Notes under the pieces: generated by a model
Database searches by the model: none
What the model was told of the DNA's origin: nothing
What the model saw: the letters and a program-made list of their open reading frames with translations, nothing else
Shown: in pieces, positions 745-40,034 of the stretch
Layout: every line of letters starts with the position of its first letter
How positions within the stretch are numbered: position 1 is the first letter of the stretch
Assembly: GCA_013115125.1 (NCBI GenBank)
Contig: JABANN010000240.1
Location: 1-48,382 of the forward strand
Length of the DNA stretch: 48,382 nucleotides
Direction of reading: 5' to 3'
DNA from: Perkinsus olseni
Taxonomy: Eukaryota
Program-made: the position numbers and the translations under genes

Positions 745-3374
745 GTGCCTTCGAAATGTCTTTCGAACTGCGGTAGGAGCATTCTCCTATCCGATGAGGA
801 TCGCTGCTCTACAGTTACTCTTGTCATGTCCCTTTACTCCTCACTATCTCTAACAGGAGCCCAATTACTTACGGGCATTGTGGGTGCCTTTACCATTGCC
901 GTTGGTGCTATACCCTTGATGGTGCCGATCGATCAGTCCAAGCGGGAGATACTCATCTACACGGTAAGTATATCCTCCACCACCACTACTGCTGTGAAAC
1001 ACTATTTTTCTCAGATGCAAGGACCAGTATGGGCCCTGTTCTCAACCCATCTCATCTTCCAAGCGACAGCCTCCCACTGTTTGCGTTCTCTCTTCGGGAC
1101 ATGGTTTGCAAGCGCCGTTGGCTGCTTGTATTACCTCATAGTGCAGGCCATGTGCGGAGGAACAATCGAGAACTACCAACGAGAAGCGGCCATCGCCTTC
1201 GCTATTCCCTTTACTTTTGTCATCGCGCTCTGCCATCGGTCTTCGGCCTGCAAGCTCCGTAAGGTCATCGGCTTCGAGGCGGCGGCCAGTAGTTTTTTCA
1301 CCCCTGTTGCCTTGTTCTTGGGCAAGCCATACGAGGAAGCTCTGTGGAACTCGATTTTCGAAAGTTACGGTATTATCGTGTCTTTGGTTACTATAGCGTT
1401 GCTTAACCTATTCGGATTGCTGCCACAGGCTGGCACGTCGCCACTCAGAGATTTCGATCTCGCCACGAGTGATTTCTTCGACGTCCTCTGCATGAGTATG
1501 ATGTCGGGTAACAGGCATGCTTCGACCTTAGATGCCGCCCAGAGTCGGTTCGAGAAGGCTCTCAATCGTGCCAGTGCGTCTTCCAGGTCGGCTAGGGTGC
1601 GCAGTAGGCTCTGGCGGATGGCCAGCTTCCTGTACTCGCTGCGGAAGTCTGTTGCTGAGGGCGTCTATCCTGAACTCATTTTCGACAAGTTGTGGAAGCC
1701 TACGGCCGCGGACCTCCTAGAGCTCCGATCTGAGATCAGGGCTGCACTGCTGAGCGAAGATGGACATGACACCCGCGAGGCCATTGGCGTGAGGGAGGAG
1801 GCAGCGTCGTTCAAGGCCAGCTTGAGGGGTGCCTCGGTGACGGCTAGGCAGGCCATGCGTGAGCATAACGGTATCATATCAACAGAAGAGATGGCAAGGT
1901 TCAACTTTGCAGAGGAGGCTGTGCTGCACTTCGCCTACATCATAGCGGATTACACCGCCGCCCGGAACGAAGAGATGGCTCCTGGCAAACTCGATAAGGT
2001 GAGCTGTCTTTGACTGTCGTTGAAGCATTCTCCTTGTGTTCTTGTCAGGGATGTCGCCAGTTCAAGGTGGTGCGTTGGTGCAACGACTTGACCGAGTTTT
2101 GCGTCAACTGGTGGCAGGAGCCCTTCTTCGAGTCCAATGGGATGACTCTGTGGGAGAAGCTCATCTACCCTGCTAAGATCACCCTCACCGGTACCCTTAC
2201 GTCGATCGTCCTTCTCCTCTGGGGCCGAGTCTATCCGTATATGATGAGCCACGTCTTCTGGGGCTTCATCGCGGCATTGTTCTGCATGCTGCCCAATACT
2301 GGTGCCACCTTCAATAAGGTACTGAGGAGGATAGGCGGGACACTTTGCGCACTCGTAGCCGCTGTTGTGTGCATCTTCGCCAACCCCTTCAATAAAGCAG
2401 CCTTCTTCGTCGAACTACTCATCGTTGCCTTCTTCGGGAAGGTGGGTTCAACCTTCCACGTTGTTGGCTACGGTGGACCAGTGTTCGTTCTAACTTGGAT
2501 TATAGTAGCCTTCCAGCCATCAGTATCGGTGCCGCAGCCGGAAGAAGATACCCTTTGGGGTGTGGGTTGGCGTATGGCTCTCACTCTAGTCGGCGTGGGG
2601 ATGACGTCGGTCCTGTCCTGTGTGGTCTTCCCCGTCTTTGCTAGCGTCCAGCTGGATACAGTCTCAGAGGAGACGTTGAAGGAGCAGGCGAAGCGTGTTA
2701 CTGATGCTGTGAGGCAGCTGATACGGTTAAGTGATGGTGACAGCAAGTCGTCTATCGTGGACGAACGGGAAGAACTCGGGGAGTTGTTGTCACGCACGTC
2801 CAACACCCGAGCTGCTCTGAAGGAGGACGCCTTCGCTGAGGTAGTTGTATTCGGGCAGTGGGTGATGTCTGGTAAGGAGAAGAGGATTCTACAGGCTCAG
2901 AAAAGTCTCGATTCTCTGGCAAAGTCCACAGTATGTGCTTATGGTGCGTGCATCACCTGTACTTTCGAGATCGGTCAGCCTGCTACTACGGAACTCCTCG
3001 CAGCTACATCCCCTCATTTGGAAGCTCTTGCAACGGCCTTGGAACGTTCCATCGCTCAGCTGGAGATTTGCCTTGAGGGCGGTGAGGACGGCGAAGCCAT
3101 TATGTTGGACGACGAAGTCCATCTGCAGATGATGCGCTGTAAGGACAGCTTCAATGAGAGGAGGGAAATGTTGGTATCAAAATTTAAAGAGGGTTCAGAT
3201 CGCTTTAATGAAGTCGTTGACTCTGGTGGATCTATCCTCTATCACGCCCTCTATGCTCTCTATCTTTTCACTGAGGAATGGAACGCCCTCGAGATCTTCC
3301 TAGCCGGCAGGAAGCACGCAGTCAGCTATCCCCTAGAGCCTGCGGCTCAGCTCGATTCCATCAGCAGGGGTTAG
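745..3374 (+). CDS. ALMT/FUSC (aromatic acid exporter)-like multi-pass membrane transporter; spliced; true start probably further upstream
   Basis: ORFs 745-2013 and 2010-3374 join in frame across GT-AG intron 1999-2048. An in-frame 51-nt intron probably lies at 964-1014. Motifs 'WGFIAALFCMLPNTGATFNKVLRRIGGTLCA' and 'WRMALTLVGVGMTSVLSCVVFPVFAS' are typical of ALMT/FUSC_2 TM modules and are followed by a helical soluble domain. Confidence 0.7.
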
Positions 3375-3684
3375 TCGTATTAGACAGGGTCCTTCGTTCA
3401 GGGTTCATAATCGCGTTTGCGCTCATCTTAACTTAGTGACGTTCTACCATTCAGTTTTCTCTGTTGTGTTGAATATCCAGTCGGGACTCGTCGTCATGTC
3501 GCCCATTTTCTACGTTTTTTCTCTCAACATGTCATGTTTCCTGCGTATGATGATGCTCCAAGTTGGGGTGGGGTATGTCTAGGTTTCACTCAACTCCGTT
3601 AGTTCGTCTGAATCCTTCGCTGGTCCCCACGGATATGGATTTTATCTCTTCAGCATTCTAAGGGCCTTTGTTGTTATTTCTCCC

Positions 3685-4709
3685 ATGTCATCTGATTTAG
3701 ATCTGTGGAAAGGTCTCGCCATCGCGATCAACGTCATCGTATGTTTTATTGGTATCATCCTATCAAGGTGGATATCTCGTACTAAGATGTATGAAATTAG
3801 TTGTGCCTTGGTGGCTGGAGTGCTGCTCGCCACTGGACTTGTCCATCTCTTGTCGGACTCTGCTGAGAGCTTGGCTGATTTAACCGAGTCCATGAACGGT
3901 TACCCTTTCCCCTATACGCTTTGTGGTATAATGTTCATAGTACTATTGATAATTGAACAATCAGTTGACGCCTATCAAGTTAAACGGAAGGATCAGTCAC
4001 CAAAACTTGTCAAAAACGATACTAACATCAACTCTGATATCGAAGGCCCGTCATCCTCCCAACTCTCATCAACCTCATCCCAGCTAACTTCGGCAGATGA
4101 TGATGCCAAAGATATGCACTCACATGATGTTAATATGTCCGAAGCTTCTGCAATATTCATTTTCCTGGCTCTTTCGGTGCATTCCATATTCGAAGGCCTT
4201 TCACTGGGTGCGAGTGACAATGCATCCCAGATCGCCTCCACTCTCATCGCCATTGCAGTGCACAAAGGCCTGGCTGCATATGCATTGGGAGCATCTTTCA
4301 TGGAGGCCAAGGTCTCCAAGTGGCGAATGATCGTCTTCAGCGTCATTTTCGCGTTCATGACTCCGGCTGGCATTGCCATTGGTTGGGGTCTCGAATCGGC
4401 CGAGAGCGATACAGGTAGTAAGGCTGCGGGAGCCCCTGCATGTCTCGTGTCATCAGCTCTTGGGGAACTTGTGACTTTTTTCAGAGGTATTAAGCGGTGT
4501 CTGTAGTGCCTTAGCAGCTGGCACGTTCCTTTATGTCGGCGCCCTTGAGTTCGTTCCAATGTCATTCAAGCCTGGTTCCTCATATATCATCTGGAAGGTA
4601 CTAGCGGGGACCTGAGAGGTGCAACTTGTGGGTAAACTGTTGTCTTCTTCAGTTCATCGCGGTACTTGTTGGCTATGGTGCAATGAGTGCCTTGGCTATT
4701 TGGACGTGA
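3685..4709 (+). CDS. ZIP (Zrt/Irt-like) zinc/iron transporter, 3 exons
   Basis: Motifs 'AGVLLATGLVHLL', 'ALSVHSIFEGLSLG' and 'AIAVHKGLAAYALG'. Introns 4415-4484 and ~4598-4652 restore 'ALAAGTFLYVGALEFVP...GYGAMSALAIWT*'. Confidence 0.93.
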
Positions 4710-15405: not shown

Positions 15406-17300
15406 TCAGCAAAACCGTTGCGACGAGAGTCACTAACAACGTCTAAAGGCTCGTACTCTCTCGGGTTCGAAGCCGAAAGTAACTAATGGAAGCCATTACC
15501 ATAACAGGCAATGGCAGGCGGACTCACCGTATCCTGAAAGGCAGAGATTTCTGCGTCACTGGTGGCCATGCCCCCTCGTGGGAGATAGAGGCCCTCGAGT
15601 TGATCATGATCCTCATCATCATGACGGTATCGAGGCTTGTAATAGCCCGCCCGAACGTCTGCTCTCCACATGCACCGCAATTGACTAATATTGAGATGGT
15701 GTACCGCCCAAGTACGGTTGTGCAGTCTCGAAAACTGATGCTCGCAATAAGGGTTCAACGCTATGCGATTTTCATCTCTATCGTCGATTTGCACAAAAGT
15801 TCGTCGCTCCGCTACTAGCTGGAACAAGTAAGTGCCAAAGGCAGGGTCATCAGGGTGGGCAGAATGCAGTCCTCCCTCAGTCTCCCTCTGCACCACCATC
15901 CTCACAAGGTCCATCGATGCAACGTAAAGATTGCCTCTCACGTACAGTGGGAATCTCTCTGCTAGGGAGTAGTCCACCCGAGGGTCGTTGTAGTCTTTCT
16001 TATTATCAGGATCTCTCACAACAACACTAGCATAGTCATAGAACCCCCAAAGGTATCGCACAGGTACTCTATGCTCTACGATTTGGTCAAGTAATGGTAT
16101 GGGACGAAGATACACATCATCATCCACCCGGAGGAAATATACCGCATCCGACCAGCGTTCAGTAACATACTGGAACATCCTCAGAGACTTCAACGTCACA
16201 TTCCTGTACGTGTCCCAAACGTCTAGCTCCGCCAAGTCACCGTAAGCTGCCTGTTCCCTCGAGACCTCCTCGGGACCCTTACCGACAAAAAAGCGATAAT
16301 CAACTCGACCCGAGTCGAACGTCATTCGCCGCAACAACGACACCCATGTTTGCCGCAACGTCTGCCTCAACAGAAAATTCCTTCTAGCGCTGAAAATACC
16401 AACAAAAACAACGCTTCGCTCCGCTAGACCTTGCCTTCCCTTGTGGATTTGACAGAGAGTGCATACATGAGCATGAAGCCTCGTCTCTATAGGAAGGTGG
16501 TATCGATATTGAAACACATCTTGCGTCATTCGCTGAGTCTCCAACCGATAAAAGACGTTCTCTTCCTTCTTCTCGTTCGTCATCAAATCTTCCAGCATCA
16601 CGATGGCGGCAGGAAGCTCAAGACTGTAGATGCCCCACACCGCCTCCCCCATGTGAAAGTGGAAGGGAATGACTTTCTTCATTTCCCCTACCGGTACCAA
16701 TGGTATGGTATGATGCGCCATAGCTTCGACCAGTACCCTCGGCGGGAACTCGCCATCATCGAGGCCGCCATAGAGAAGGGTGAAGCGATACCGTTTGAAC
16801 ATTCTACTGTAGGACGATGAACCCTCCACATAAACATGATCGGGCATAATCTCAGTAGCATTAACAACCAGGTTCTGGAGATGTTGCTGCGCCATGAAAT
16901 CCCTCGGCAGCACCACCGACAGCAAATGGTCCTTCTCTAGTAGCAGCTGGATGTTCTTCTCCTCGTAGTGGGTCGGGTCGAAGTAGTAGACGTTACCCTT
17001 TCTCTCCATGAAGGGTACAATACTACGATTGCTCGTCAGGATGATATCATAGTCCCCTTCTACTCTACCACCACTAGCGTTAGAGTACAGAACTCCACAG
17101 CTGGTCCGAGGCAGCGGATTGCTGGGCCCCTCGAGCACCAGGAAGGCATCACAATCTTCCATACGCCTTGTCCAACCACTGCCCTCACTAAGTGCCGCGC
17201 TGAAGATACGATTCAGCCGATTGATTCTGTCACCAATCGAAGGAACGCCAGCAGGAACTACTGAGAAATGGACGAGAGTGACCACAAGGGTTAACAACAT
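15406..17300 (-). CDS. GT31 (beta-1,3-galactosyltransferase-like) glycosyltransferase with an extra N-terminal domain; last exon uncertain
   Basis: 605-aa ORF with signal/anchor, 'FVGIFSARRNFLLRQTLRQTW', 'DTYRNVTLKS', DxD 'FLRVDDDVY', 'PLYVRGNLYVASMDLV' and 'PDDPAFGTYL'. A GTGAG donor near 15527 implies a short terminal exon. Confidence 0.85.
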
Positions 17301-28465: not shown

Positions 28466-28928
28466 GTCGAAAGCGGATGCCACTTACGGGTGGCGCGGTT
28501 CAACCTCGGATATGCACGCATGCACAGCACGCATGCCCAACAGAGTGAGTGGAGACTAGTCCCTCTAGGGTGATGAGAAAGCGGAGGGTGGATCAACGAG
28601 GGGAAGAAGGGAAACCGATGTTACCGTCCCACTATAGAAAAACTCATCGAGTGGACGCTGCTGGAAGGTGGAATGCCGCGCTGAAGATCTCGCTCGCCCA
28701 GGCTGAGCGCACGATCTGAAGACCCCCTCGGCGACCCTGAGCCATCCACTTCTCGTCTGATTATGTGTACGTAGTGAGCGAGTGATGACCTCCAGTCACA
28801 TCCCAGTGAGCGTTTCCCATCCCCACTGTTTACTCAACCATCGCAACATTGCGGTAGCGGTGATGGTGATGATGATAATGAACTACAGTTAATAGTAGCA
28901 AGATGATTGTGAACCAAGTGACCTCAGC

Positions 28929-30817
28929 TCATTCAGAATGGTACCGGGCAAGATACCTCTCCACCTTGTCCACATCATAGCCCTCTGCTTCCATCCATAA
29001 CACGATCCAGTCATACTTCACACCAACCGCCCGTTGATGTACTTCCTTTATAGCCTCTACCTTCTCATGGGTCCGCCCTACGTTCCCGCTACGCGCATAG
29101 ACCCTCATAACTACCCCCTGCGGAACGCCCAGCTCCTCACCGATCTCTCGTAAGGCTCTTGCCACCTCCACCGTCCTCCTCGACGACCCTTTCTCCCAGG
29201 CCAGGATATCTGCCACCCATTGCGCCTCGAACTCATTCTCCTTCTCTATTTCCTCCATAAAGTGTATCAGCTGGTGGGCCCGAGGGACAAAGTCGCCCTC
29301 ACTCGCATGCGCTCGATGCTGATGGCCTCCATCACCCAAGCCCGGGGGTAGGGTGGAGTCAGACCTACTACCGTAGTAGTTCCGGTCTCCATTTCTGACA
29401 ACGGACCCATTGCTAGTAGCGGAAGATGCCGGTCCCCCGTACCTGTGCTCGGTACCCTCAGCCGCCTGCGTTGCTCCGATATCCCCAGCAGCCCCTCTCT
29501 GGGCTTTGTGTCCCTCCCCCATGTCTTCTGGTGGGGTATCGCATATGATACTCTCGTAGACGCTGCTAGAAGGGGATGATGACGAGGAGGAGGAGGAGGC
29601 CTCTTCTCGCGCCGCCCTCCGCCTAATAACAGGCTCTCCGTCAGCATCCTCAGAAGACCTCGAGCCGGCCGATCGCCTCTCTGGGTGTGCTCGCGGCCTC
29701 TCCTCCCGCCTGGGGCGCTGTACCCCATCCCTTCTACTCGACACACCCCGCATCCCATTCTCAGCAGCGGCCTCGGACAGGCCGCTGACGACATCATCTT
29801 CCCTCAGAGACACGAAAGATTCGCTCACTCTTCGGTTATCAAAGGGCTTCTCCTGAGAGAACCTCCCTGTACGACTCTTCTTAGCGACTGGCCTCCCCCC
29901 TCCATCTCTCGCCGAGGGGACTGCACGATCTCCTCCTCGGTGCTGAGCCCGACTCTGGTGGCTCGAGGTGGAGGCATCCGCACTCCCACTGCTGCTGCTG
30001 CTGCTGCTTGATGCTGCTGCTGCTACTGCCGCCGCATGCCTTGCCTTCCTCTCCTCGGCCAGCCTAGCAGACAGCTCCTGATACCTGGGTTCGATGAACT
30101 TCAGCCACCTCGTCCTCATACTCTCATGTGGGTGAGGTGCGGCTATACCTGATGTCAGGAGGTGAACACCCATCAATAGCAGGCCTTGTTAGAATCACAC
30201 CTTTCTCCTCTGCCTCGATCCATATCTTGTTCCCCCTCACCGGCACTTTCTTCCCCCTTCTGGTGAACTCCGGAGGTTTATCAGCAATGAACCGAAAAAT
30301 GGCGAAGTCGTCCTCCTCGGTGAAGTTGGTATGCGCCAGTGGCGCCACACAGCGTCTGCTGGCGAAGTTGACTTCGTACGCTAAGGGCATCGGCCTAGCG
30401 TTTGTAACCTGCTCTCGAGCAGGTAATAACACCACCGGCCACCATGGAAGACCTCACCATGTAGTCGCTAAGCCTCTCGCAAATCCCACGCGCTACAGAG
30501 TTGGTGATGAATCTAACGTCGATGGCAGTACTCTGAGGGAAAGAGGCCTCCCTGAAGCAGAACGGTTGAAGGCTGGCCTACCTTGGACAAGGGAGCATCT
30601 TTGATGACCCCGGGGTCCATCAGTACCATATCCTCTTCCCTTTCCCTACCATCGGCCTGAAGGACTGTAGAGTGATGATAGCCATGGCAGCGAGCCCCAT
30701 CCCCATAGCACCCACCCTTCGTTTTCTCTCTTTACCGCCATTATCTTCGAGCAGCCTTCTTATCCGACTCCGATCCTTGAGACCCGCAGAGAGGATGAAC
30801 TCCATCCCTCTGAACAT
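28929..30817 (-). CDS. RAP1: Rap1/TERF2IP-like telomere protein (BRCT - Myb - disordered linker - RCT-like); start may be further upstream
   Basis: Spliced BRCT-like 'MFRGMEFILSAGLKDRSRIRRLLEDNG...MVLMDPG...AIDVRFITNSVARGICERLSDY'. Rap1-type Myb 'NFTEEDDFAIFRFI...RGNKIWIEAEEKGIAAPHPHESMRTRWLKFI'. C-terminal 'LREIGEELGVPQGVVMRVYARSGNVGRT'. Confidence 0.72.
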
Positions 30818-31432
30818 TGGTAGAGGCAATGCCGCACAACCTGTCTGAAACAGCCGATACAGGCACACGGAAGTGAACCCGAATCTTCGTCCACAGCGCA
30901 TAGGAGGGGTGTTATGTGCCTCAGTTGACTTTAACACAAGAGTGAGGAGAGGCGCCAAGAAGGCCTTGAGTATGCGTGCAACTGTGAAGGCAGCATAGCT
31001 AATGGCAAAGCCGCGCAACTGTAAGGACAACACTAAGGATGCCATTCTCAGCCCTCAGCATTATCATGCCTAAGAGACACCAAAGTAGCAATACTCAGTA
31101 GCTCAATCAATCATCAGAAGCCTATAACCAACTTGAAGTCATTTCTTCTATGTTCCACTGGCGGTGATCAGGAATGAGATTCGGGGACAACCGGGGATTC
31201 AGCTGCCTCCAAGGTATTCAGCCCTCCTAGAGAGAAATACTACACGCTCCAAGGCAAGAGCGGCGGCACCCTACCTGGCCCCCGTTACTGCAGCTACTAC
31301 GCCTTTAGCGAGGCCGTTCAAACCCACTGTGGCGTCCCTTAACGAACCCCCTCCCTCCATTGGGCAACTCCACCGCGGAACTTGGAAACAAAGAAAGTGA
31401 AACTGCACTGTTAGTAGTGTACTTTGAAGACT

Positions 31433-34400
31433 CTATTCTGAAGTCACATCTTTGAGTTCTTTCTTGAGGGGAGTGTTGACGAATTTATGAAAAGTCTTGG
31501 CCGCCGAGGGCCCCTAAAACAGCAGCACTCGGCCTCATCGCCGGAGGGTTGAGCCTATCCTACCATCAGTTCAGTCATCGTTTCCACGTCCAACTTGACC
31601 AGCTTCTTCAGAGTATTAGCCTTTGGTGAATTACGCAGTACCGTCAAGATATGGGGTGTTATCCCAGGGCAGCTGAGGAGCAACTACATCGCAACACCCA
31701 CCTGAGGGACGGGGCTTACTTCAAGAGGATCTCGGAGGCGGCAGTCCTAGTGGAGGCCGGATTGGCACTCTGGGCCTTCTTCGATGCCAGGTCGAATTGG
31801 ACTACAGTAGAGAGACACTCAGCAGTGATGAGCAACTTCCTCCCGGTCATCAGCACCTGGCCCTCCTTCCTCGATGGTCTCATCAGCCATACTGCCCTCA
31901 ACTTTCTTCTTCATAGCCTCCACTGGATCTGGCTGTTGGACGGCCCTCACCTGCGCCATCTCCGACTATGGCAGCGCCATCACCATCGCCATCCACCCCA
32001 CCTTGAGTGCCACGAAGAGGTTGGCAGTGCTTCTGTCCGACAGGGACCACATGAGGCGAAGACTGGGGAAGTGCAGTACCAGAGCAACTGAGCAACATCA
32101 AAGAGAATGGGTGGAGGCGCAAACCTCCCCAGCAGCCCACGAGTACCAAGTCGTGATATATTATCGCTGTCGCTGATCCTGGCCGAGTTGCCCCTCATCA
32201 GAGCCCCGGCCTCGGTCTCCTGTACCTCTACTAGAAGGGAGGGCATACGGTAGTTGAAGGACATGCTCACTGCCTGACGATACCTAATGATAGGAGGAGG
32301 GCTAGTGCAGCAGCGGTGCCACAGAAACCGAGGAGGAGAGGGCGTACAGTCGGCCACTGGCAAGACTGCCTATGAGGTCCGGTAGAGCCTTCCTCTCAAT
32401 ACAGATATCCCGGGAGAGGATGAAGTCCCCGACTGGTAGGGTGTACTGGACAGAGTAGACGATAGAGATGATGTTCACCAATAGGAGCCCCTCACTGGTA
32501 GGAGGGTAAGGCCCTTCCGATGCAGCTCCAATGGCAAGTTGCTTCGCAGTTCCCTAACATCAACAATGACTGTCTGCCGCATCTCCTCCTCCCGCTTCCT
32601 CTTCCGACCGCCCGCCCGTGACGAAGCGGCTGCAACCCCTCCCACCGGTGTCTAAAATACATGGAATAATCGAACCCTCCTCGAGGTTTGTCTGACCGTG
32701 AGGGGCACCCATTCGTCCTTGGGCTTGGACGTCGCCACAGTCTTCTCCATACTGATGAGCTCGTGGAAGGCCTGCTGCTCCTGCACGCCCGACTGGGCTA
32801 ACCGTCGCGATTCATGAGAATTCAGCACTTGTATGATGACGGTGTGGACCAGTGGATCTGAAAGAGGTTATCCGAGGGAACGACTTAGGCCACTCGGGCC
32901 TACCTCCTCGGTTCTTCACGTAGGAAGTGTATCGCTCCGCTACCCTTATTGGCAGTATGGTGGGCGCATCGTATAAGAGTATCACATTCGGCTGGAACTC
33001 TGCTAGGCGGGTGGTCATATACCCGTCCCCCTTGAATGCATCCACCACGTTGATCATAACACTGAGCAAGGGGAGGAGTAGCTCAGATATGCCTGCCTCG
33101 ACAGCTACGGCGACTGACTACGGTACTGTACTTTATCAAGCTCTTCCTCAGTACGGCTTCACCGTTCTCCCCATTATCCACGATGACATCTCTCACCCCT
33201 TCCAGGGAGCGACTGCAGACGTTAGCACACCGGTCGGGCATATTATAGAGCTCCTCCTTGAGTAGGTCAGCCTCTTTCTTGAGAATGCCTGCCATAGTAC
33301 ACCATAGTACACCGGCAGAGGGTGTGAGGGGGCCGCACAGGAGAGCCTCACCGAGATTCGATCCAGCTTGCTTAGGTCTGTAGTAGTCATTGCTGCGCAT
33401 CTCGTAGAGGAGGCTTTGGAAGGACTGCAGCAGGGCTGCCTCGGGGCCTACACGACAGTGCTGTACTCTCCTCAGCCCACTGGCTGTGTCCTCCTCCCCT
33501 CACCCCGGTCCACCAATGTTTTAGTCATGTAGGAGGAGGTTTGAGCGTGGGTCACGACGGCTACTCTGATCTCGGGTAAACTAAAGGATGATGGCCCCTC
33601 CTTGAGGACTCGGACCGCTGAGAAGACATGCGTGGGGTGGAAGGGACGGAGCGTAGCTGGTAGAGCAGCATCATGATCAGCACCTTCATCGTTGATGGCC
33701 TTCTGGAGCATAGCCCATTTAGGAGGAGGGTCCATGTGTAGGTGTAGGCCTCGGGCATCGAAGTTGTACCTGCTCAAAGATCTCTGCCATCAGTACCCCG
33801 AGGTGGTACTGATGACCGCAGCGCCCTGGTGCGGTCTAGTACGGTAAGATTGCCGCGATGACCGCCCTGAGCGCTCTACCGAAAAGCGGCTCAGACCACC
33901 AACAAACCGCGCAGGATCAACACCCCCACGAAGGACTTGAGAGGAGTCCGGAGCAGACAACAACAGGAGTGAGAGCCTCGAGGTGGCCTACAGTCTCTGG
34001 CGTGCTTGGCTAATGAGCTTATAGGTAGCCCCGGCGTTCACCCAGGGTGAATCAGGATGGGCTGATATAGCATCCAGGAGGGATACGAAGAACTGCAGAA
34101 CAACAGCGTCGAGGATAAGTAGTGTAGGGATGCTTACCGCAGTGGCATCACCCGAGCGCAGCTTGTAAGTGAGCCTCTCCAACACGTCAGCGTCCCTGAT
34201 CATATTCTGTGTCCGTCGGCCCAGCTGGTCCCATACCTACTATAGAGGACTCCAGTGCACTCCTGCAGCTGTTGAGCACCGACCAAGGACAGCTGTGGGC
34301 GGAGTGTAAACCACTCATCGATGGCAGCTAGGCCACGGAGGGCACCTTTGGGCAGGCCTTGAGGGAAGATCGGTATACCTGAACCCAACAGGGAAAGCCG

Positions 34401-36629: not shown

Positions 36630-38174
36630 TCAACTGGGGCTGATGATGAGCTCGACACCCTGATCTCGAGATGGTGTGGTAGTAGCCCAGAGCACGGCAG
36701 CGGCAGCACAGACGATAGCCCCGAGGCAACCGGCTGCCACAGGAACAGCCTTCCTGATGTCTGTAGTGAAACCAAAACACTTGGAGCCTTTACCTGACCA
36801 CAGGCCAGATAAAGTCAACGAGCAGACATAGCGCAATGTCTTCTCACCTCCAGGCGGAGGGGTGACGAACCTCCGTTGGTCCTTCACAAGCTCCTTGTCC
36901 CTTCTCTTCTGGATGTTACCCCTCTCCTTCTCATCAGCTACTTGACACAGCAGTCTCTTGCTGAATATGCAGCTACACCGGGGCATCCGTTGGGCTGCCT
37001 TCAGCCTCAAGAGCCTCGGCAAGGGAAACGCGTCCCTTACACACAGCCATACCATGTCTATCAGGCGCTCTAGCGAAGGCATATCCAAGGTCGAAGGAAG
37101 GTTTTGACAGAATTGATGGACATGGGGCATATCGAAAGGCTCCACCTGTAGTATGTCGTCTCGATGCATGATGAGGAGGCAGGCTACATAATAGTAGATA
37201 ACGGCCGGATGGCTCGACAGCAAGGAGTCCATCAGCCTCTGGGACATCTCCAGTGTTGGCAAGTTGTGGGCCATCCAGGTGAGGACCCAGGGGACGGCGA
37301 AGTGGGGGGATTGGATATCGGCCTTGCTGAGGGCTCGATAGAGGTCGGGGTCGAGGGCCTCTAAGAGGGCAAAGGAAAGGTCTAGTCCTGGTAGGAGGGC
37401 GTATTGGAAGGGGTAAAAGCACAGGTCCGAGAGGTAGAACAGACAGAGGCGATCCAGCATAGCACAACAGCGAGAGGTACCTGATGATGATGAGTTGGGG
37501 GAAGAGCGGTAGGCAGGGGATAGCCTACTGGGCTCCACTTCAAGGAGTGCCAACGCTATATCATGAAGGCCTTGGTAGTAGTGTAGATGGCCTTCGTGTC
37601 TGCCAACTACGTCCACCAATACCGCAGCCAAGGCCCGCTGCTTCCTCTTCCGTATACTCAGGCGCACGACCGAGCCCTGACCCCTCCAGGAGTTGCCGCT
37701 CCTCGCAACGTCTCTACTGATGACAGGGTAGGACTTCTCTACCTCCTGTAGTGAGGGGAGCTCTCCCTCCTCTTGCTGTGCCGGTGAGGACTCTGCCGCC
37801 GCCGCCGAGAGCCCAAGCAAGGCTGACCACACGCTACGACGTATACTGGAGTTGACGAACCCGAAGGGGGAGTGGGCCAACATTTGGAGCTCATGGAGGT
37901 CGATAACAGGCTCAGCTGCGAGGGCACGGAAGATACGCTGTATCTGTAATAAGAGGGAATCTTTGGACCGCAAGGTCTGCCCTTGTTCAACCTGTTGCTG
38001 TCGGCGTTTCTTCACGGTTCCCGGGCCAATGGCAGCGTGGGAAGCCCTACTGGAGCCTCGCAGGAGGGCCTCGTAGGGGGGAACCTCTGCCTTGGGGGAG
38101 GCTGCTGTGGAGTCGCTGCTGTCGTCCACTGCCGCATAGCGTCGTCTACGAGGTGGGGACATGGCGAAGGGCAT
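36630..38174 (-). CDS. TBC-domain Rab GAP, TBC1D20/Gyp8-like, with C-terminal membrane anchor
   Basis: 'GFVNSSIRRSVWSALLG', 'VISRDVARS', 'LHYYQGLHDI', 'HFAVPWVLTWMAH' and 'RLMDSLLSSHP'; hydrophobic tail AVPVAAGCLGAIVCAAAAVLWA. Confidence 0.88.
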   Translation of the reverse strand: MPFAMSPPRRRRYAAVDDSSDSTAASPKAEVPPYEALLRGSSRASHAAIGPGTVKKRRQQQVEQGQTLRSKDSLLLQIQRIFRALAAEPVIDLHELQMLAHSPFGFVNSSIRRSVWSALLGLSAAAAESSPAQQEEGELPSLQEVEKSYPVISRDVARSGNSWRGQGSVVRLSIRKRKQRALAAVLVDVVGRHEGHLHYYQGLHDIALALLEVEPSRLSPAYRSSPNSSSSGTSRCCAMLDRLCLFYLSDLCFYPFQYALLPGLDLSFALLEALDPDLYRALSKADIQSPHFAVPWVLTWMAHNLPTLEMSQRLMDSLLSSHPAVIYYYVACLLIMHRDDILQVEPFDMPHVHQFCQNLPSTLDMPSLERLIDMVWLCVRDAFPLPRLLRLKAAQRMPRCSCIFSKRLLCQVADEKERGNIQKRRDKELVKDQRRFVTPPPGGEKTLRYVCSLTLSGLWSGKGSKCFGFTTDIRKAVPVAAGCLGAIVCAAAAVLWATTTPSRDQGVELIISPS

Positions 38175-38369
38175 TCTTAGAAAAACTGTGATACCAGAAC
38201 AACGACCCGTCAACTAGACTCGAGACGATGATTCAGGCTGGCCTACAAGACGGTTCAAGAAAGGTGCAAGCTGTGGTAGTTGATGATGATAATGACGACC
38301 TGGGCGGCCTCGCATGGCCCAAGAGTACAGTAGAGGGGCCAGCCCTGACACTAAACGTGGTGGTTGTCG

Positions 38370-40034
38370 TCAATGCCACTGATACAAAGTTGATGATGAT
38401 GGCCTTGAATTAACAGCCTTGGCAACCATCTTCATGTAGTCCCATCGTAGTAGTATTTCGCCATGGTCTATGCTGTCCAATATGATAGTCTTGACCCCTC
38501 CTCTCACAGTACACTCGGCATAGACATCCTGTACCGGCACCACATGATCTCTTTCGGAGAGGAAGACTACCGACCCCTCGGGGAGCTCACAGGGGAACAT
38601 TACGCACTGCATCCAGAAGAAGTTACGGAAGAGGCAACAGGCTATGCCCACCTCCTGAGAGGCTATGTACCGGAGGAACTTGGCAAAGGGACGAACAGGC
38701 CTCTTATAGAGGAAGTTGGCGCAGACGTCAGGTAGCTGTAGATGGATACTCACTGGATCCACCAATACCACACGACAGTGGGAATACAGCTCGGGGCAGT
38801 AGTGCCTGAGCCATGCTATAGTGAAAGTGCCGAAGGAGTGGCCAGCCAAGCAGAGGCGTTGATGACCTTCAGGCACGCCATGCTGTCTGAGGGCACACTC
38901 AACGCCCTTAGCGTACTCCTCTGCAGGGATGACCTCAGCCCAGGGGTCCATCGATACCCAGGGCAACTCGAAGAGGAAGTGCGTCCCTGCTGTGAAGGTG
39001 GGTAGGAAGGGCATGTAGGTGGTGAACCCAATGCCCAGACCATGAAAGAACACCAAGGCCTCCTCGCCTGCCTTCTCAGTACGGCTTCTCTTGTACCAGT
39101 AGGTTACCTTACCCATACGATAGTGACGGTAACCCAGCAAGCGCAAGCCTATGGACCCCAGGAGCTTCAACCCTTTAATGGCGAGGTAGAACACGAATGG
39201 TCTGTGGACAGCCATCACCGGATCTAGAGTCTGACGATTGATCTTAACCTGAGGGGGACCTATCGAAGGCCGTCGACGGAGAAGATACTACATCGCCCCT
39301 GCCTGGCTTTATAGGGAAGCTATGATCCCTCGTCACACGCTCCTTTACAGTCTCCACCCACTGTAGCTCAGACGAGTCCAGTGCCTGGGAGAAGGCCACC
39401 ATGAGGTACTTTGTGCGAGGCTGGTGATGACCTCCAAATGCTTGTAGTAGAAGGCCCAGGCGAAGAACTCGGATATATTCTCATCTCGAAGGTCCTCCTG
39501 CTCCACCCCTGGCTCGAACCTGCAGCACCATCATCAGCCTCGAGACCAGTACTACCGACTATCGACGACAGACTATGGACGAATTTAATAGTCGAGAGAG
39601 CCCAACCTACGTAAGGCCATTGATTCGAAAGTCTTACTGTTCTCAAGACAACTTAAGCCGAATGTACGAGTAGTTTAGCGACTCTACACTTTCCCTAAAA
39701 TTCCCAATTCTCCCATAGCTGCCAGTAGAGTGTTCCAGCCGTCCTCGCTACTACTACCATCCCTTCAAGAGGCGCCACAGCCCTTCAGGATGCCGCTTTA
39801 GCATCTCAGTCACCTTCTCCAGCACATAATCTCGACGGTCATCCGGTACTTCAGGCACCACTGCCGGGGTCTCACTCTGCCTGGCTACATGCCTGCGGTA
39901 CCTACCTACCCGATACCACACCAACCTACCCACCACTACTACTACTACCAGATATAGAACAACACCTCGACCAGTGCCCAGAGAGCCCCCATGAAAGGCA
40001 GCAGTGTACGCTTCCAGGAAGAAGCCACTACCAT
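38370..40034 (-). CDS. Membrane-anchored alpha/beta hydrolase, tandem paralogue 1
   Basis: 'VFFHGLGIG', nucleophile 'AGHSFG', 'LVDPV', 'SERDHVVP' and 'IDHG'. Exon 1 reads MVVASSWKRTLLPFMGALWALVEVLFYIW. Confidence 0.85.

What the first reader, a model, noticed from the sequence alone, without database searches (positions are those of the whole stretch)
28929..30817. Apparently complete Rap1/TERF2IP (shelterin) homologue in an alveolate-like genome
Seen: once short introns are removed, three modules appear in Rap1 order. They are an N-terminal BRCT-like segment, a Myb with Rap1-type features (FTEEDD.AI..FI, GNKIW, H..ESMR.RWLK), and, after a long disordered linker, a helical C-terminus resembling the start of the RCT domain. 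Known: BRCT-Myb-RCT defines Rap1 in fungi, animals and trypanosomes, and trypanosome Rap1 silences subtelomeric antigen genes. To my knowledge no Rap1 is characterised in apicomplexans or dinoflagellates. Inference: a shelterin-type Rap1 was retained in this lineage. The ORF track hides it because the BRCT and Myb are split by introns.
Basis: partly seen in the sequence, partly recalled or inferred. Interest (0 to 1): 0.8.

Follow-up and report, generated by a model that had tools for sequence, protein, structure and literature searches.

The report
Perkinsus Rap1-like telomere protein gene
An expressed, six-exon gene of the mollusc parasite Perkinsus olseni encodes a protein with the BRCT and Myb domains typical of the telomere protein Rap1; it is a real but modest addition to a known family, is already auto-labelled in public databases, and its C-terminal domain is still unassigned.

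Summary
On the minus strand, 30817..28929, lies a six-exon gene with five GT-AG introns of 48-59 nt. All five appear as joints in spliced RNA contigs with no mismatches. The 543-aa product is identical to residues 29-571 of Perkinsus olseni KAF4660554.1. UniRef already names that protein 'TERF2-interacting telomeric protein 1 Myb domain-containing protein'.

- **Myb:** passes Pfam Myb_Rap1 (38.6 bits against a cut-off of 27.1).
- **N-terminus:** a Rap1-type BRCT. Pfam BRCT_2 is below its cut-off but aligns end to end, and hhalign against the BRCT of 34 fungal Rap1 proteins gives 97.2% probability, P 3.8e-11.
- **C-terminal helical domain:** not shown to be an RCT. There is no Pfam Rap1_C hit. 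hhalign is weak (P 0.003; 4 of 170 block shuffles reach its score). AlphaFold models were low-confidence and gave no significant fold match.

Verdict: a Rap1-family member in Perkinsozoa, present in three Perkinsus species. It is a new member of a known kind, and its telomere function is inferred, not tested. An HMMER scan of 1.84 billion proteins found, apart from Perkinsus, two fungal Rap1 proteins and four proteins without a source name, so no other alveolate can be named among the hits.

The parts
28929..30817 (-). Whole coding region, ATG 30817 to TGA 28929. Six exons: 30817-30716, 30656-30582, 30532-30458, 30408-30201, 30148-29443, 29394-28929. Product 543 aa.
   Evidence: Exon joins taken from RNA contig joints. 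Translation is open, 1632 nt. Identical to residues 29-571 of P0052 = P. olseni KAF4660554.1.
30397..30817 (-). BRCT domain (aa 1-88), split by introns 1-3
   Evidence: Pfam BRCT_2: 17.6 bits, E 0.0049, profile positions 1-85 of 86, below the 27.3 cut-off. The P. chesapeaki orthologue scores 23.2 bits, E 8.5e-5. hhalign against the BRCT of 34 fungal Rap1: 97.2%, P 3.8e-11, 80 columns.
30078..30324 (-). Rap1-type Myb domain (aa 113-177), split by intron 4
   Evidence: Pfam Myb_Rap1 PF08914: 38.6 bits, E 1.5e-9, cut-off 27.1. Exon 4 alone scores 20.1 bits. hhalign against fungal Rap1 Myb: 96.3%, P 1.5e-9. Best PDB profile hits are the human RAP1 Myb 1fex_A (E 0.025) and 8rd4_D (E 0.059). The AlphaFold model of the P. 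marinus orthologue has pLDDT 75-85 here.
29307..30011 (-). Low-complexity, probably disordered linker (aa 200-418). It contains the 48-nt intron 5 (29442-29395) and a CAG/GCA-rich stretch (about 29974-30059).
   Evidence: pLDDT is 26-35 in the orthologue model. Identity to P. marinus is 47%, against 64-78% in the domains. The repeat was skipped by the read layer.
29793..29846 (-). Conserved linker motif 1 (aa 255-272, PFDxRRxSESF..RE[DE][DE])
   Evidence: Conserved in P. olseni, P. marinus and P. chesapeaki within an otherwise divergent linker.
29523..29561 (-). Conserved linker motif 2 (aa 350-362, YE[ST]I[IV]CDTPP)
   Evidence: Conserved in the three Perkinsus species.
28932..29306 (-). Acidic helical C-terminal domain (aa 419-543). 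It sits where an RCT would, but RCT identity is not shown.
   Evidence: Seven predicted helices at mean pLDDT 52.5. 67% identical to P. marinus. Net charge -7. No Pfam Rap1_C at E<=10. hhalign against fungal RCT: 10.4%, P 0.003. Shuffles reaching that score: 0 of 170 (column) and 4 of 170 (block).
28851..28928 (-). 3' untranslated region covered by the RNA contig
   Evidence: X2 contig record 5 begins at 28851.

Best explanation
This is the Perkinsus olseni orthologue of the Rap1/TERF2IP telomere-protein family. It is an expressed six-exon gene. Its 543-aa product has an N-terminal Rap1-type BRCT domain, one Rap1-type Myb domain, a long disordered linker with two conserved short motifs, and a compact acidic helical C-terminal domain.

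Shown here: the gene structure, its expression as spliced RNA, the homology of the BRCT and Myb domains to Rap1, the domain order, and conservation in three Perkinsus species.

Inferred: like the single-Myb Rap1 proteins of mammals and fission yeast (recalled knowledge), it most likely acts as an adaptor at telomeric chromatin. It would be brought there mainly by protein-protein contact through its C-terminal domain with an unidentified duplex-telomere-binding protein. The BRCT and the linker motifs would be further docking sites. The basic Myb insertion loop (TRRGKKVPVRG) may add weak DNA contact.

Whether the C-terminal domain is a diverged RCT or a lineage-specific replacement is open; I put it at about even odds.
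For: Gene and expression:
- Five GT-AG joints in RNA contigs with 0 mismatches, and BRCT and Myb exons on one contig.
- Identical to KAF4660554.1 residues 29-571.

Myb:
- Pfam Myb_Rap1 38.6 bits against a cut-off of 27.1, with no other Myb family listed at E<=10.
- All 9 relatives scanned also exceed the Myb_Rap1 cut-off.

BRCT:
- BRCT_2 aligned over profile positions 1-85 of 86, but below the cut-off.
- hhalign of 3 perkinsid N-termini against 34 fungal Rap1 N-termini: 98.8%, E 7.9e-17 over 152 columns.
- BRCT alone 97.2%, P 3.8e-11; Myb alone 96.3%, P 1.5e-9; cross-domain controls P 0.013-0.62.

Database scan and PDB:
- phmmer of the P. marinus orthologue against 1.84 billion proteins gave 12 hits at E<=1e-3.
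- Six of the 12 are Perkinsus or near-identical to it, and two are annotated fungal Rap1 (P0008, P0012), each matched across both BRCT and Myb.
- The other four are unnamed proteins that carry Myb_Rap1.
- The best PDB profile hits are human RAP1.

Conservation against P. marinus: BRCT 64%, Myb 78%, C-terminal domain 67%, linker 47%.

C-terminal domain: its best local hhalign match to fungal RCT falls on the RCT core helices. That score (23.1) exceeds 170 of 170 column shuffles and 166 of 170 block shuffles.
Against: - No Pfam Rap1_C hit at E<=10 for the whole protein or for the C-terminal domain alone.
- An HMM of the fungal RCT gives only 3.5 bits.
- hhalign probability for RCT is only 10.4%, and one cross-domain control reached P 0.018.
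- The AlphaFold models of the C-terminal domain are low-confidence: mean pLDDT 52.5 alone, 35-53 within the whole protein.
- BRCT_2 stays below Pfam's cut-off in both species tested, and the BRCT model has pLDDT of only 32-66.
- No telomeric localisation, DNA binding or partner was tested, and no TRF-like partner could be sought because no whole genome is held.
- The window holds no telomere-type repeats, so position gives no hint.
Confidence: 0.75

Rival explanations
1. A Rap1-derived protein whose C-terminal domain is a lineage-specific module unrelated to RCT. Its main role would be away from telomeres, for example transcription regulation or the DNA-damage response through the BRCT. The family name would then say little about what it does in Perkinsus.
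For: - Every direct RCT test was negative or weak.
- The C-terminal domain has relatives only in Perkinsus: one search found 3 hits, one search found no C-terminal match outside Perkinsus, and the metagenome scan confirmed none of 414 pattern matches.
- Its weak Pfam hints are to ARMH5, sigma-70 region 4 and EF-Ts.
- Rap1 proteins have non-telomeric roles in yeast and mammals (abstracts listed).
Against: - A structured domain at the extreme C-terminus, after BRCT, Myb and linker, is the position of RCT in the two fungal Rap1 proteins scanned (P0008, P0012).
- The best local profile match falls on the RCT core and beats 166 of 170 block shuffles.
- RCT domains are highly divergent (recalled), so a negative sequence test is weak evidence.
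Confidence: 0.2
2. A generic BRCT plus SANT/Myb chromatin protein that resembles Rap1 only by shared, widespread domain types and is not a Rap1 homologue.
For: - BRCT and Myb folds are common.
- BRCT_2 is below Pfam's cut-off.
- Single-sequence phmmer against the PDB found nothing relevant.
Against: - The Myb passes the Rap1-specific Pfam model, and no general Myb model is listed at E<=10.
- The two named non-Perkinsus hits in 1.84 billion proteins are annotated fungal Rap1, matched over BRCT and Myb together.
- hhalign over both domains gives E 7.9e-17.
Confidence: 0.04
3. A gene-prediction or assembly artefact, or a pseudogene.
For: None found.
Against: - Spliced RNA contigs in two runs of two studies with 0 mismatches.
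- An open 1632-nt frame.
- Orthologues in P. marinus and P. chesapeaki whose domains are more conserved than the linker.
Confidence: 0.01

Closest known systems
Human TERF2IP/RAP1 (shelterin subunit; PDB 1fex Myb, 8rd4 chain D, 3k6g RCT-TRF2)
   Same: Single Rap1-type Myb after an N-terminal BRCT, then a long acidic or low-complexity linker and a C-terminal helical domain. The best PDB profile hits of the Perkinsus family are 1fex_A (E 0.025) and 8rd4_D (E 0.059).
   Different: - The Perkinsus Myb has a loop about 6 residues longer and basic between helices 1 and 2 (alignment).
- The C-terminal domain has no detectable RCT signature.
- 543 aa against the 399-aa chain 8rd4_D.
- Partner unknown.
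Pezizomycotina Rap1 (e.g. P0008 from Coleophoma crateriformis, P0012 from a Hypoxylon species)
   Same: BRCT_2 and Myb_Rap1 in the same order. These are the only named non-Perkinsus hits of the phmmer scan (E 4.5e-6 and 2.5e-4), each matched across both domains. hhalign gives 98.8%.
   Different: The fungal proteins are 750-880 aa. They add Rap1-DNA-bind and ARID domains (P0012 also a second Myb_Rap1 stretch) and a clear Rap1_C of 75-82 bits. The Perkinsus protein has none of these.
Trypanosoma brucei RAP1
   Same: A protist Rap1 with BRCT, Myb and a divergent C-terminal region. According to passages of the review PMC10813129 and the abstract of PMC7045384, it acts in telomere stability and subtelomeric silencing.
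   Different: TbRAP1 has an additional Myb-like domain (figure legend in PMC10813129). Silencing of subtelomeric antigen genes has no known counterpart in Perkinsus.
Schizosaccharomyces pombe Rap1
   Same: A Rap1 that is an adaptor in a shelterin-like complex linked to the duplex binder Taz1 (passage of bioRxiv 10.64898/2026.01.29.702503). This is the working model proposed here.
   Different: Not compared by sequence here. The Perkinsus partner is unknown.

Membership tests
Rap1/TERF2IP | Rap1-type Myb domain (Pfam PF08914 Myb_Rap1) | tested here: met
   38.6 bits, E 1.5e-9, against the curated cut-off of 27.1 on P0052, which equals the window's product plus 28 N-terminal residues. P. marinus scores 38.8 bits and P. 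chesapeaki 30.0 bits. hhalign against fungal Rap1 Myb: 96.3%, P 1.5e-9.
Rap1/TERF2IP | N-terminal BRCT domain (Pfam PF16589 BRCT_2) | tested here: met
   Below Pfam's cut-off (17.6 and 23.2 bits against 27.3) but aligned over profile positions 1-85 of 86. Profile-profile match to the BRCT of 34 fungal Rap1: 97.2%, P 3.8e-11, 80 columns, with cross-domain controls at P 0.013-0.29. The structure model is low-confidence here, and Foldseek BRCT rows are all E>1.
Rap1/TERF2IP | C-terminal RCT domain (Pfam PF11626 Rap1_C) | tested here: inconclusive
   - No Pfam hit at E<=10.
- Fungal-RCT HMM: 3.5 bits.
- hhalign: 10.4%, P 0.003, score 23.1 on 39 columns of the RCT core. Reached by 0 of 170 column shuffles and 4 of 170 block shuffles; the reversed query scores 14.8.
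Rap1/TERF2IP | Domain order BRCT, Myb, linker, C-terminal protein-interaction domain in one polypeptide | tested here: met
   One spliced RNA contig carries all exons in this order. The P. marinus orthologue has the same order. The P. chesapeaki model shares it through the linker, but its C-terminus does not align.
Rap1/TERF2IP | Association with telomeres, directly or through a TRF/Taz1-type duplex binder | not testable with these tools
   No localisation or interaction data. No whole genome is held in which to look for a TRF-like partner. 0 papers hold rap1 + telomere + perkinsus.

The most novel reading that the evidence does not exclude
Perkinsus kept an ancestral Rap1 that other myzozoans lost or changed beyond recognition. 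In Perkinsus it exchanged the RCT for a lineage-specific acidic helical domain and gained a basic Myb loop. This would give a new way of tethering Rap1 to the unusual candidate TTTCGGG telomeres reported for P. marinus (passage of PMC3622300). At least two further Rap1-Myb paralogues in P. olseni (P0005, P0006) would hint at a small family with divided roles.
Probability: 0.2. Interest if true: 0.55.

Novelty: new member of a known kind. Interest (0 to 1): 0.35.

Why it matters
The reviews I read cover Rap1 in opisthokonts and kinetoplastids, and the full-text searches found no paper on a Rap1 in Perkinsus or any other alveolate. A clear BRCT-Myb Rap1 in Perkinsozoa, a parasitic relative of dinoflagellates, adds a data point within SAR for the view that Rap1 dates back to early eukaryotes.

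It also gives a concrete handle for finding the unknown duplex-telomere-binding proteins of myzozoans, by pull-down with the C-terminal domain.

It is not a surprise. [quoted passage not shown]

Tried and rejected
- **Intron 1, first guess.** My first hand-built model used 30735-30665 for intron 1 and no linker intron (555 aa). The RNA joints replaced it. Two of the short-exon Pfam queries used those wrong borders.
- **Single-sequence phmmer of P0003 against the PDB.** One irrelevant hit, mL68 at E 0.48.
- **Word-indexed search with the N-terminal 185 residues.** Only P0003 itself and P0002 among 332 candidates.
- **ESM Atlas on the C-terminal domain.** No usable hit.
- **AlphaFold.** Whole P. 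marinus orthologue with a 12-row alignment: mean pLDDT 44.4, only the Myb confident. C-terminal domain alone with 3 rows: 52.5.
- **Foldseek against the PDB, whole-protein model.** No match at E<=0.001. The top rows were C. elegans TEBP-2 Myb-containing domain (E 0.44), 15 rows with BRCT domains at E 1.8-5.8, and yeast Rap1 6ldm_A and 3ukg_A at E 4.3-5.5, all non-significant.
- **Foldseek and VIA-wide, C-terminal model.** Nothing above background. A low-confidence model makes these uninformative.
- **Metagenome scan for C-terminal relatives.** 414 pattern matches, none confirmed.
- **Raw-read RNA runs X23 and X24.** 0 reads laid, so no test.
- **Whole genome.** Not held, so TRF-like partners and the paralogues' loci could not be examined.
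- **Earlier findings of this scan.** None.
- **Rfam around the 5' flank.** Only a sub-threshold snoRNA-like match, 23 bits against a cut-off of 50.
- **Telomere-type repeats in the window.** None of six patterns present as two or more tandem copies.
- **Complex prediction.** Not used, because no partner is known.
- **Supplements of PMC3622300.** Its table S5 on telomere candidates could not be seen.

Full report
**What is in the sequence**

The finding's interval lies on the minus strand. A stop-to-stop ORF list shows a 419-aa frame (28929..30188) and a 109-aa frame (30124..30453). The 109-aa frame carries the Myb-like motifs, and shorter frames lie upstream. My first hand-built splice model got intron 1 wrong and missed an intron in the linker.

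**RNA evidence**

Of the 24 public runs listed, 20 hold the stretch, and 2 of those are on record as RNA. I laid four runs.

- Run X2 has one 1745-nt contig covering 28851-30846 with 0 other letters. It skips 29395-29442 (48 nt), 30149-30200 (52), 30409-30457 (49), 30533-30581 (49) and 30657-30715 (59).
- All five skipped parts end CT..AC on the plus strand, which is GT..AG on the gene's strand.
- Run X13, from another study, shows 4 of these 5 joints and does not cover the first.
- The raw-read runs X23 and X24 laid no reads, so they are no test.
- Because the contigs lack the introns, they derive from spliced RNA.
- X2's contig and X13's 564-nt contig each carry BRCT exons and Myb exons together.

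The resulting coding sequence is 1632 nt, 543 aa.

**Whose gene it is**

The last exon found three relatives: P. olseni, P. marinus, and an unnamed near-copy of the P. marinus protein. A cluster look-up returned P0052, which is P. olseni KAF4660554.1 of 571 aa. Its residues 29-571 are identical to my spliced product.

The public model starts at an upstream in-frame ATG (30901). The P. marinus and P. chesapeaki orthologues start at the position of ATG 30817, and the RNA contig ends at 30846. I therefore prefer 30817.

P. olseni belongs to Alveolata, Perkinsozoa. UniRef names P0052 'TERF2-interacting telomeric protein 1 Myb domain-containing protein'. It gives the P. marinus protein a name beginning 'TERF2-interacting te' and calls the P. 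chesapeaki protein 'BRCT domain-containing protein'. Automatic annotation has thus already seen the gene and its Myb.

**Myb domain**

- On P0052, Pfam Myb_Rap1 scores 38.6 bits (E 1.5e-9) against a curated cut-off of 27.1. No general Myb/SANT model appears at E<=10.
- P. marinus scores 38.8 bits and P. chesapeaki 30.0 bits.
- A profile of the perkinsid sequences finds human RAP1 as its two best PDB hits (1fex_A at E 0.025, 8rd4_D at E 0.059). These are weak but specific.
- The Myb is the only confidently modelled part of the P. marinus orthologue (pLDDT 75-85).
- Relative to human RAP1, the loop between helices 1 and 2 is about 6 residues longer and basic (alignment). The domain has net charge +2.

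**BRCT domain**

- Pfam BRCT_2 aligns over positions 1-85 of 86 but stays below its cut-off of 27.3. It scores 17.6 bits in P. olseni and 23.2 bits, E 8.5e-5, in P. chesapeaki.
- The decisive test was profile against profile. Three perkinsid N-termini against the first 100 residues of 34 fungal Rap1 proteins gave 97.2%, P 3.8e-11 over 80 columns. The fungal set comes and is mostly Xylariales, so it is a narrow sample.
- BRCT plus Myb together gave 98.8%, E 7.9e-17 over 152 columns.
- Cross-domain controls gave P 0.013-0.62.
- The structure model is poor here (pLDDT 32-66), and Foldseek's BRCT rows are all E>1. The structural support is therefore only suggestive.

**Scan of 1.84 billion representative proteins**

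phmmer with the P. marinus orthologue found 12 proteins at E<=1e-3.

- Four are named Perkinsus proteins (P0001, P0004, P0005, P0006).
- Two are unnamed near-copies of P. marinus pieces (P0002, P0007).
- Two are annotated fungal Rap1 (P0008 at E 4.5e-6, P0012 at E 2.5e-4), each matched across both BRCT and Myb. Both carry BRCT_2, Myb_Rap1 and Rap1_C by Pfam.
- Four are unnamed proteins with Myb_Rap1 (P0009, P0010, P0011, P0013).

Nine of the nine scanned pass the Myb_Rap1 cut-off. No hit is named as apicomplexan, dinoflagellate, chromerid or ciliate. This is not proof of absence, because single domains of about 60 residues rarely reach E 1e-3 in so large a library.

**C-terminal domain**

The domain (aa 419-543) is well conserved, 67% identical to P. 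marinus against 47% in the linker. It is acidic, with net charge -7, and is predicted as seven helices. The tests for RCT went as follows.

- Pfam Rap1_C is not listed at E<=10 for the whole protein or the domain alone.
- An HMM of 34 fungal RCTs gives 3.5 bits.
- hhalign gives 10.4% probability, P 0.003, score 23.1. The alignment pairs the segment around ELGVPQGVVMRVYARSGNVG with the fungal RCT core helices.
- That score was reached by 0 of 170 column shuffles and 4 of 170 shuffles of six-column blocks. The reversed query scored 14.8.
- One cross-domain control, Myb against RCT, reached P 0.018.
- The AlphaFold models are low-confidence, 52.5 alone and 35-53 in context.
- No further relatives were found to deepen the alignment.

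My reading is that the position and the faint core match are what a diverged RCT would give, but membership is not demonstrated. I put it at about even odds.

**How it probably works (inference)**

By analogy with single-Myb Rap1 proteins, the protein is most likely an adaptor on telomeric chromatin, recruited by a duplex-telomere binder through the C-terminal domain. The analogy rests on recalled knowledge, on a passage on S. pombe in bioRxiv 10.64898/2026.01.29.702503, and on a passage on TRF2 recruiting RAP1 in PMC9498494.

The BRCT and two conserved linker motifs would serve as further docking sites. These motifs are PFDxRRxSESF at aa 255-272 and YE[ST]I[IV]CDTPP at aa 350-362. The basic Myb loop could add DNA contact.

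None of this was tested. The window carries no telomere repeats, and no genome is held in which to search for a TRF-like partner. P. marinus has an unusual candidate telomere repeat, TTTCGGG (passage of PMC3622300; its supplementary table could not be seen).

**Comparison with what is known, and novelty**

A review states that RAP1 homologues are known 'from kinetoplastids to mammals' (passage of PMC10813129). My full-text searches gave the following.

- 0 papers hold rap1 + telomere + perkinsus.
- 2 papers hold rap1 + shelterin + alveolates. In the one I opened (PMC7658794) the terms stand in unrelated places. The other I judged from its title and abstract in the listing only.
- 6 papers hold rap1 + telomere + dinoflagellate. 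In the one I opened, PMC9498494, the two topics are unconnected.
- None of the 15 listed Rap1 domain papers holds 'Toxoplasma'.

The protein is therefore uncharacterised, but it is a member of a known family and already auto-labelled. I rate it a new member of a known kind, with interest 0.35.

The boldest reading that remains open is lineage-specific retention of Rap1 in Perkinsus, with a replaced C-terminal module and paralogue expansion (P0005, P0006).

**Context**

Neighbouring long frames encode ordinary eukaryotic proteins. They include an ALMT/FUSC-like transporter, a ZIP transporter, a galactosyltransferase, a RabGAP-TBC protein and an alpha/beta hydrolase.

Noticed in passing
window 29793-29846 and 29523-29561 (minus strand): Two short motifs in the otherwise divergent linker are conserved in all three Perkinsus species: PFDxRRxSESF..RE[DE][DE] and YE[ST]I[IV]CDTPP. 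HMMER placed the second opposite a 'CDDDPPTPEE' stretch of human RAP1 (8rd4_D). That alignment scored -2.3 bits, so the resemblance may be chance.
   Followed up: partly
proteins P0005 (KAF4680755.1) and P0006 (KAF4736738.1), P. olseni; not in this window: P. olseni has at least two further gene models with a Rap1-type Myb (47.7 and 29.1 bits). They are only 57% and 48% identical to the P. marinus protein, so they look like paralogues rather than alleles. tblastn finds no second copy in this window. Whether they carry BRCT or C-terminal domains is unknown.
   Followed up: partly
window 30818-30901 (minus strand): The public P. olseni model starts at an in-frame ATG 84 nt upstream, adding 28 residues that the P. 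marinus and P. chesapeaki orthologues lack. The RNA contig ends at 30846, beside a CAG, with 6 further unaligned letters. That would fit trans-splicing of a leader there (the leader is recalled knowledge), but the letters were not visible.
   Followed up: no
window 30887-31100: RNA contigs of much higher depth (37-102 against about 14 in run X2) lie just upstream of the gene. The two listed pieces (31026-31100 and 31038-31100) carry 4-6 differences in 63-75 nt and run on beyond the laid stretch; further contigs have loose ends at 30910 and 31026. They probably come from a related, abundant transcript elsewhere. Rfam finds no RNA family in 30600-33000 above threshold.
   Followed up: partly
proteins P0009, P0010, P0011 (unnamed, Logan/ENA): Proteins of unknown origin with two to four tandem Rap1-type Myb domains and no BRCT or Rap1_C. 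This architecture is unlike canonical Rap1.
   Followed up: no
protein P0013 (unnamed, ENA, 218 aa): A small protein with one Rap1-type Myb (40.2 bits) and a C-terminal stretch that aligns with the fungal RCT core. It may be a minimal Myb-RCT Rap1 from an unknown organism.
   Followed up: partly
window 1998-3374 (+), 3583-4506 (+), 15483-17300 (-), 36630-38213 (-), 38370-39287 (-): Long open frames with Pfam hits: ALMT/FUSC_2 transporter, ZIP zinc transporter, galactosyltransferase, RabGAP-TBC and alpha/beta hydrolase. This is ordinary gene content and not obviously subtelomeric.
   Followed up: partly
window 29974-30059: A CAG/GCA-rich repeat encodes the Ala/Ser run after the Myb. The read-laying tool skipped it as a repeat. 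The stretch is much shorter in P. marinus.
   Followed up: no
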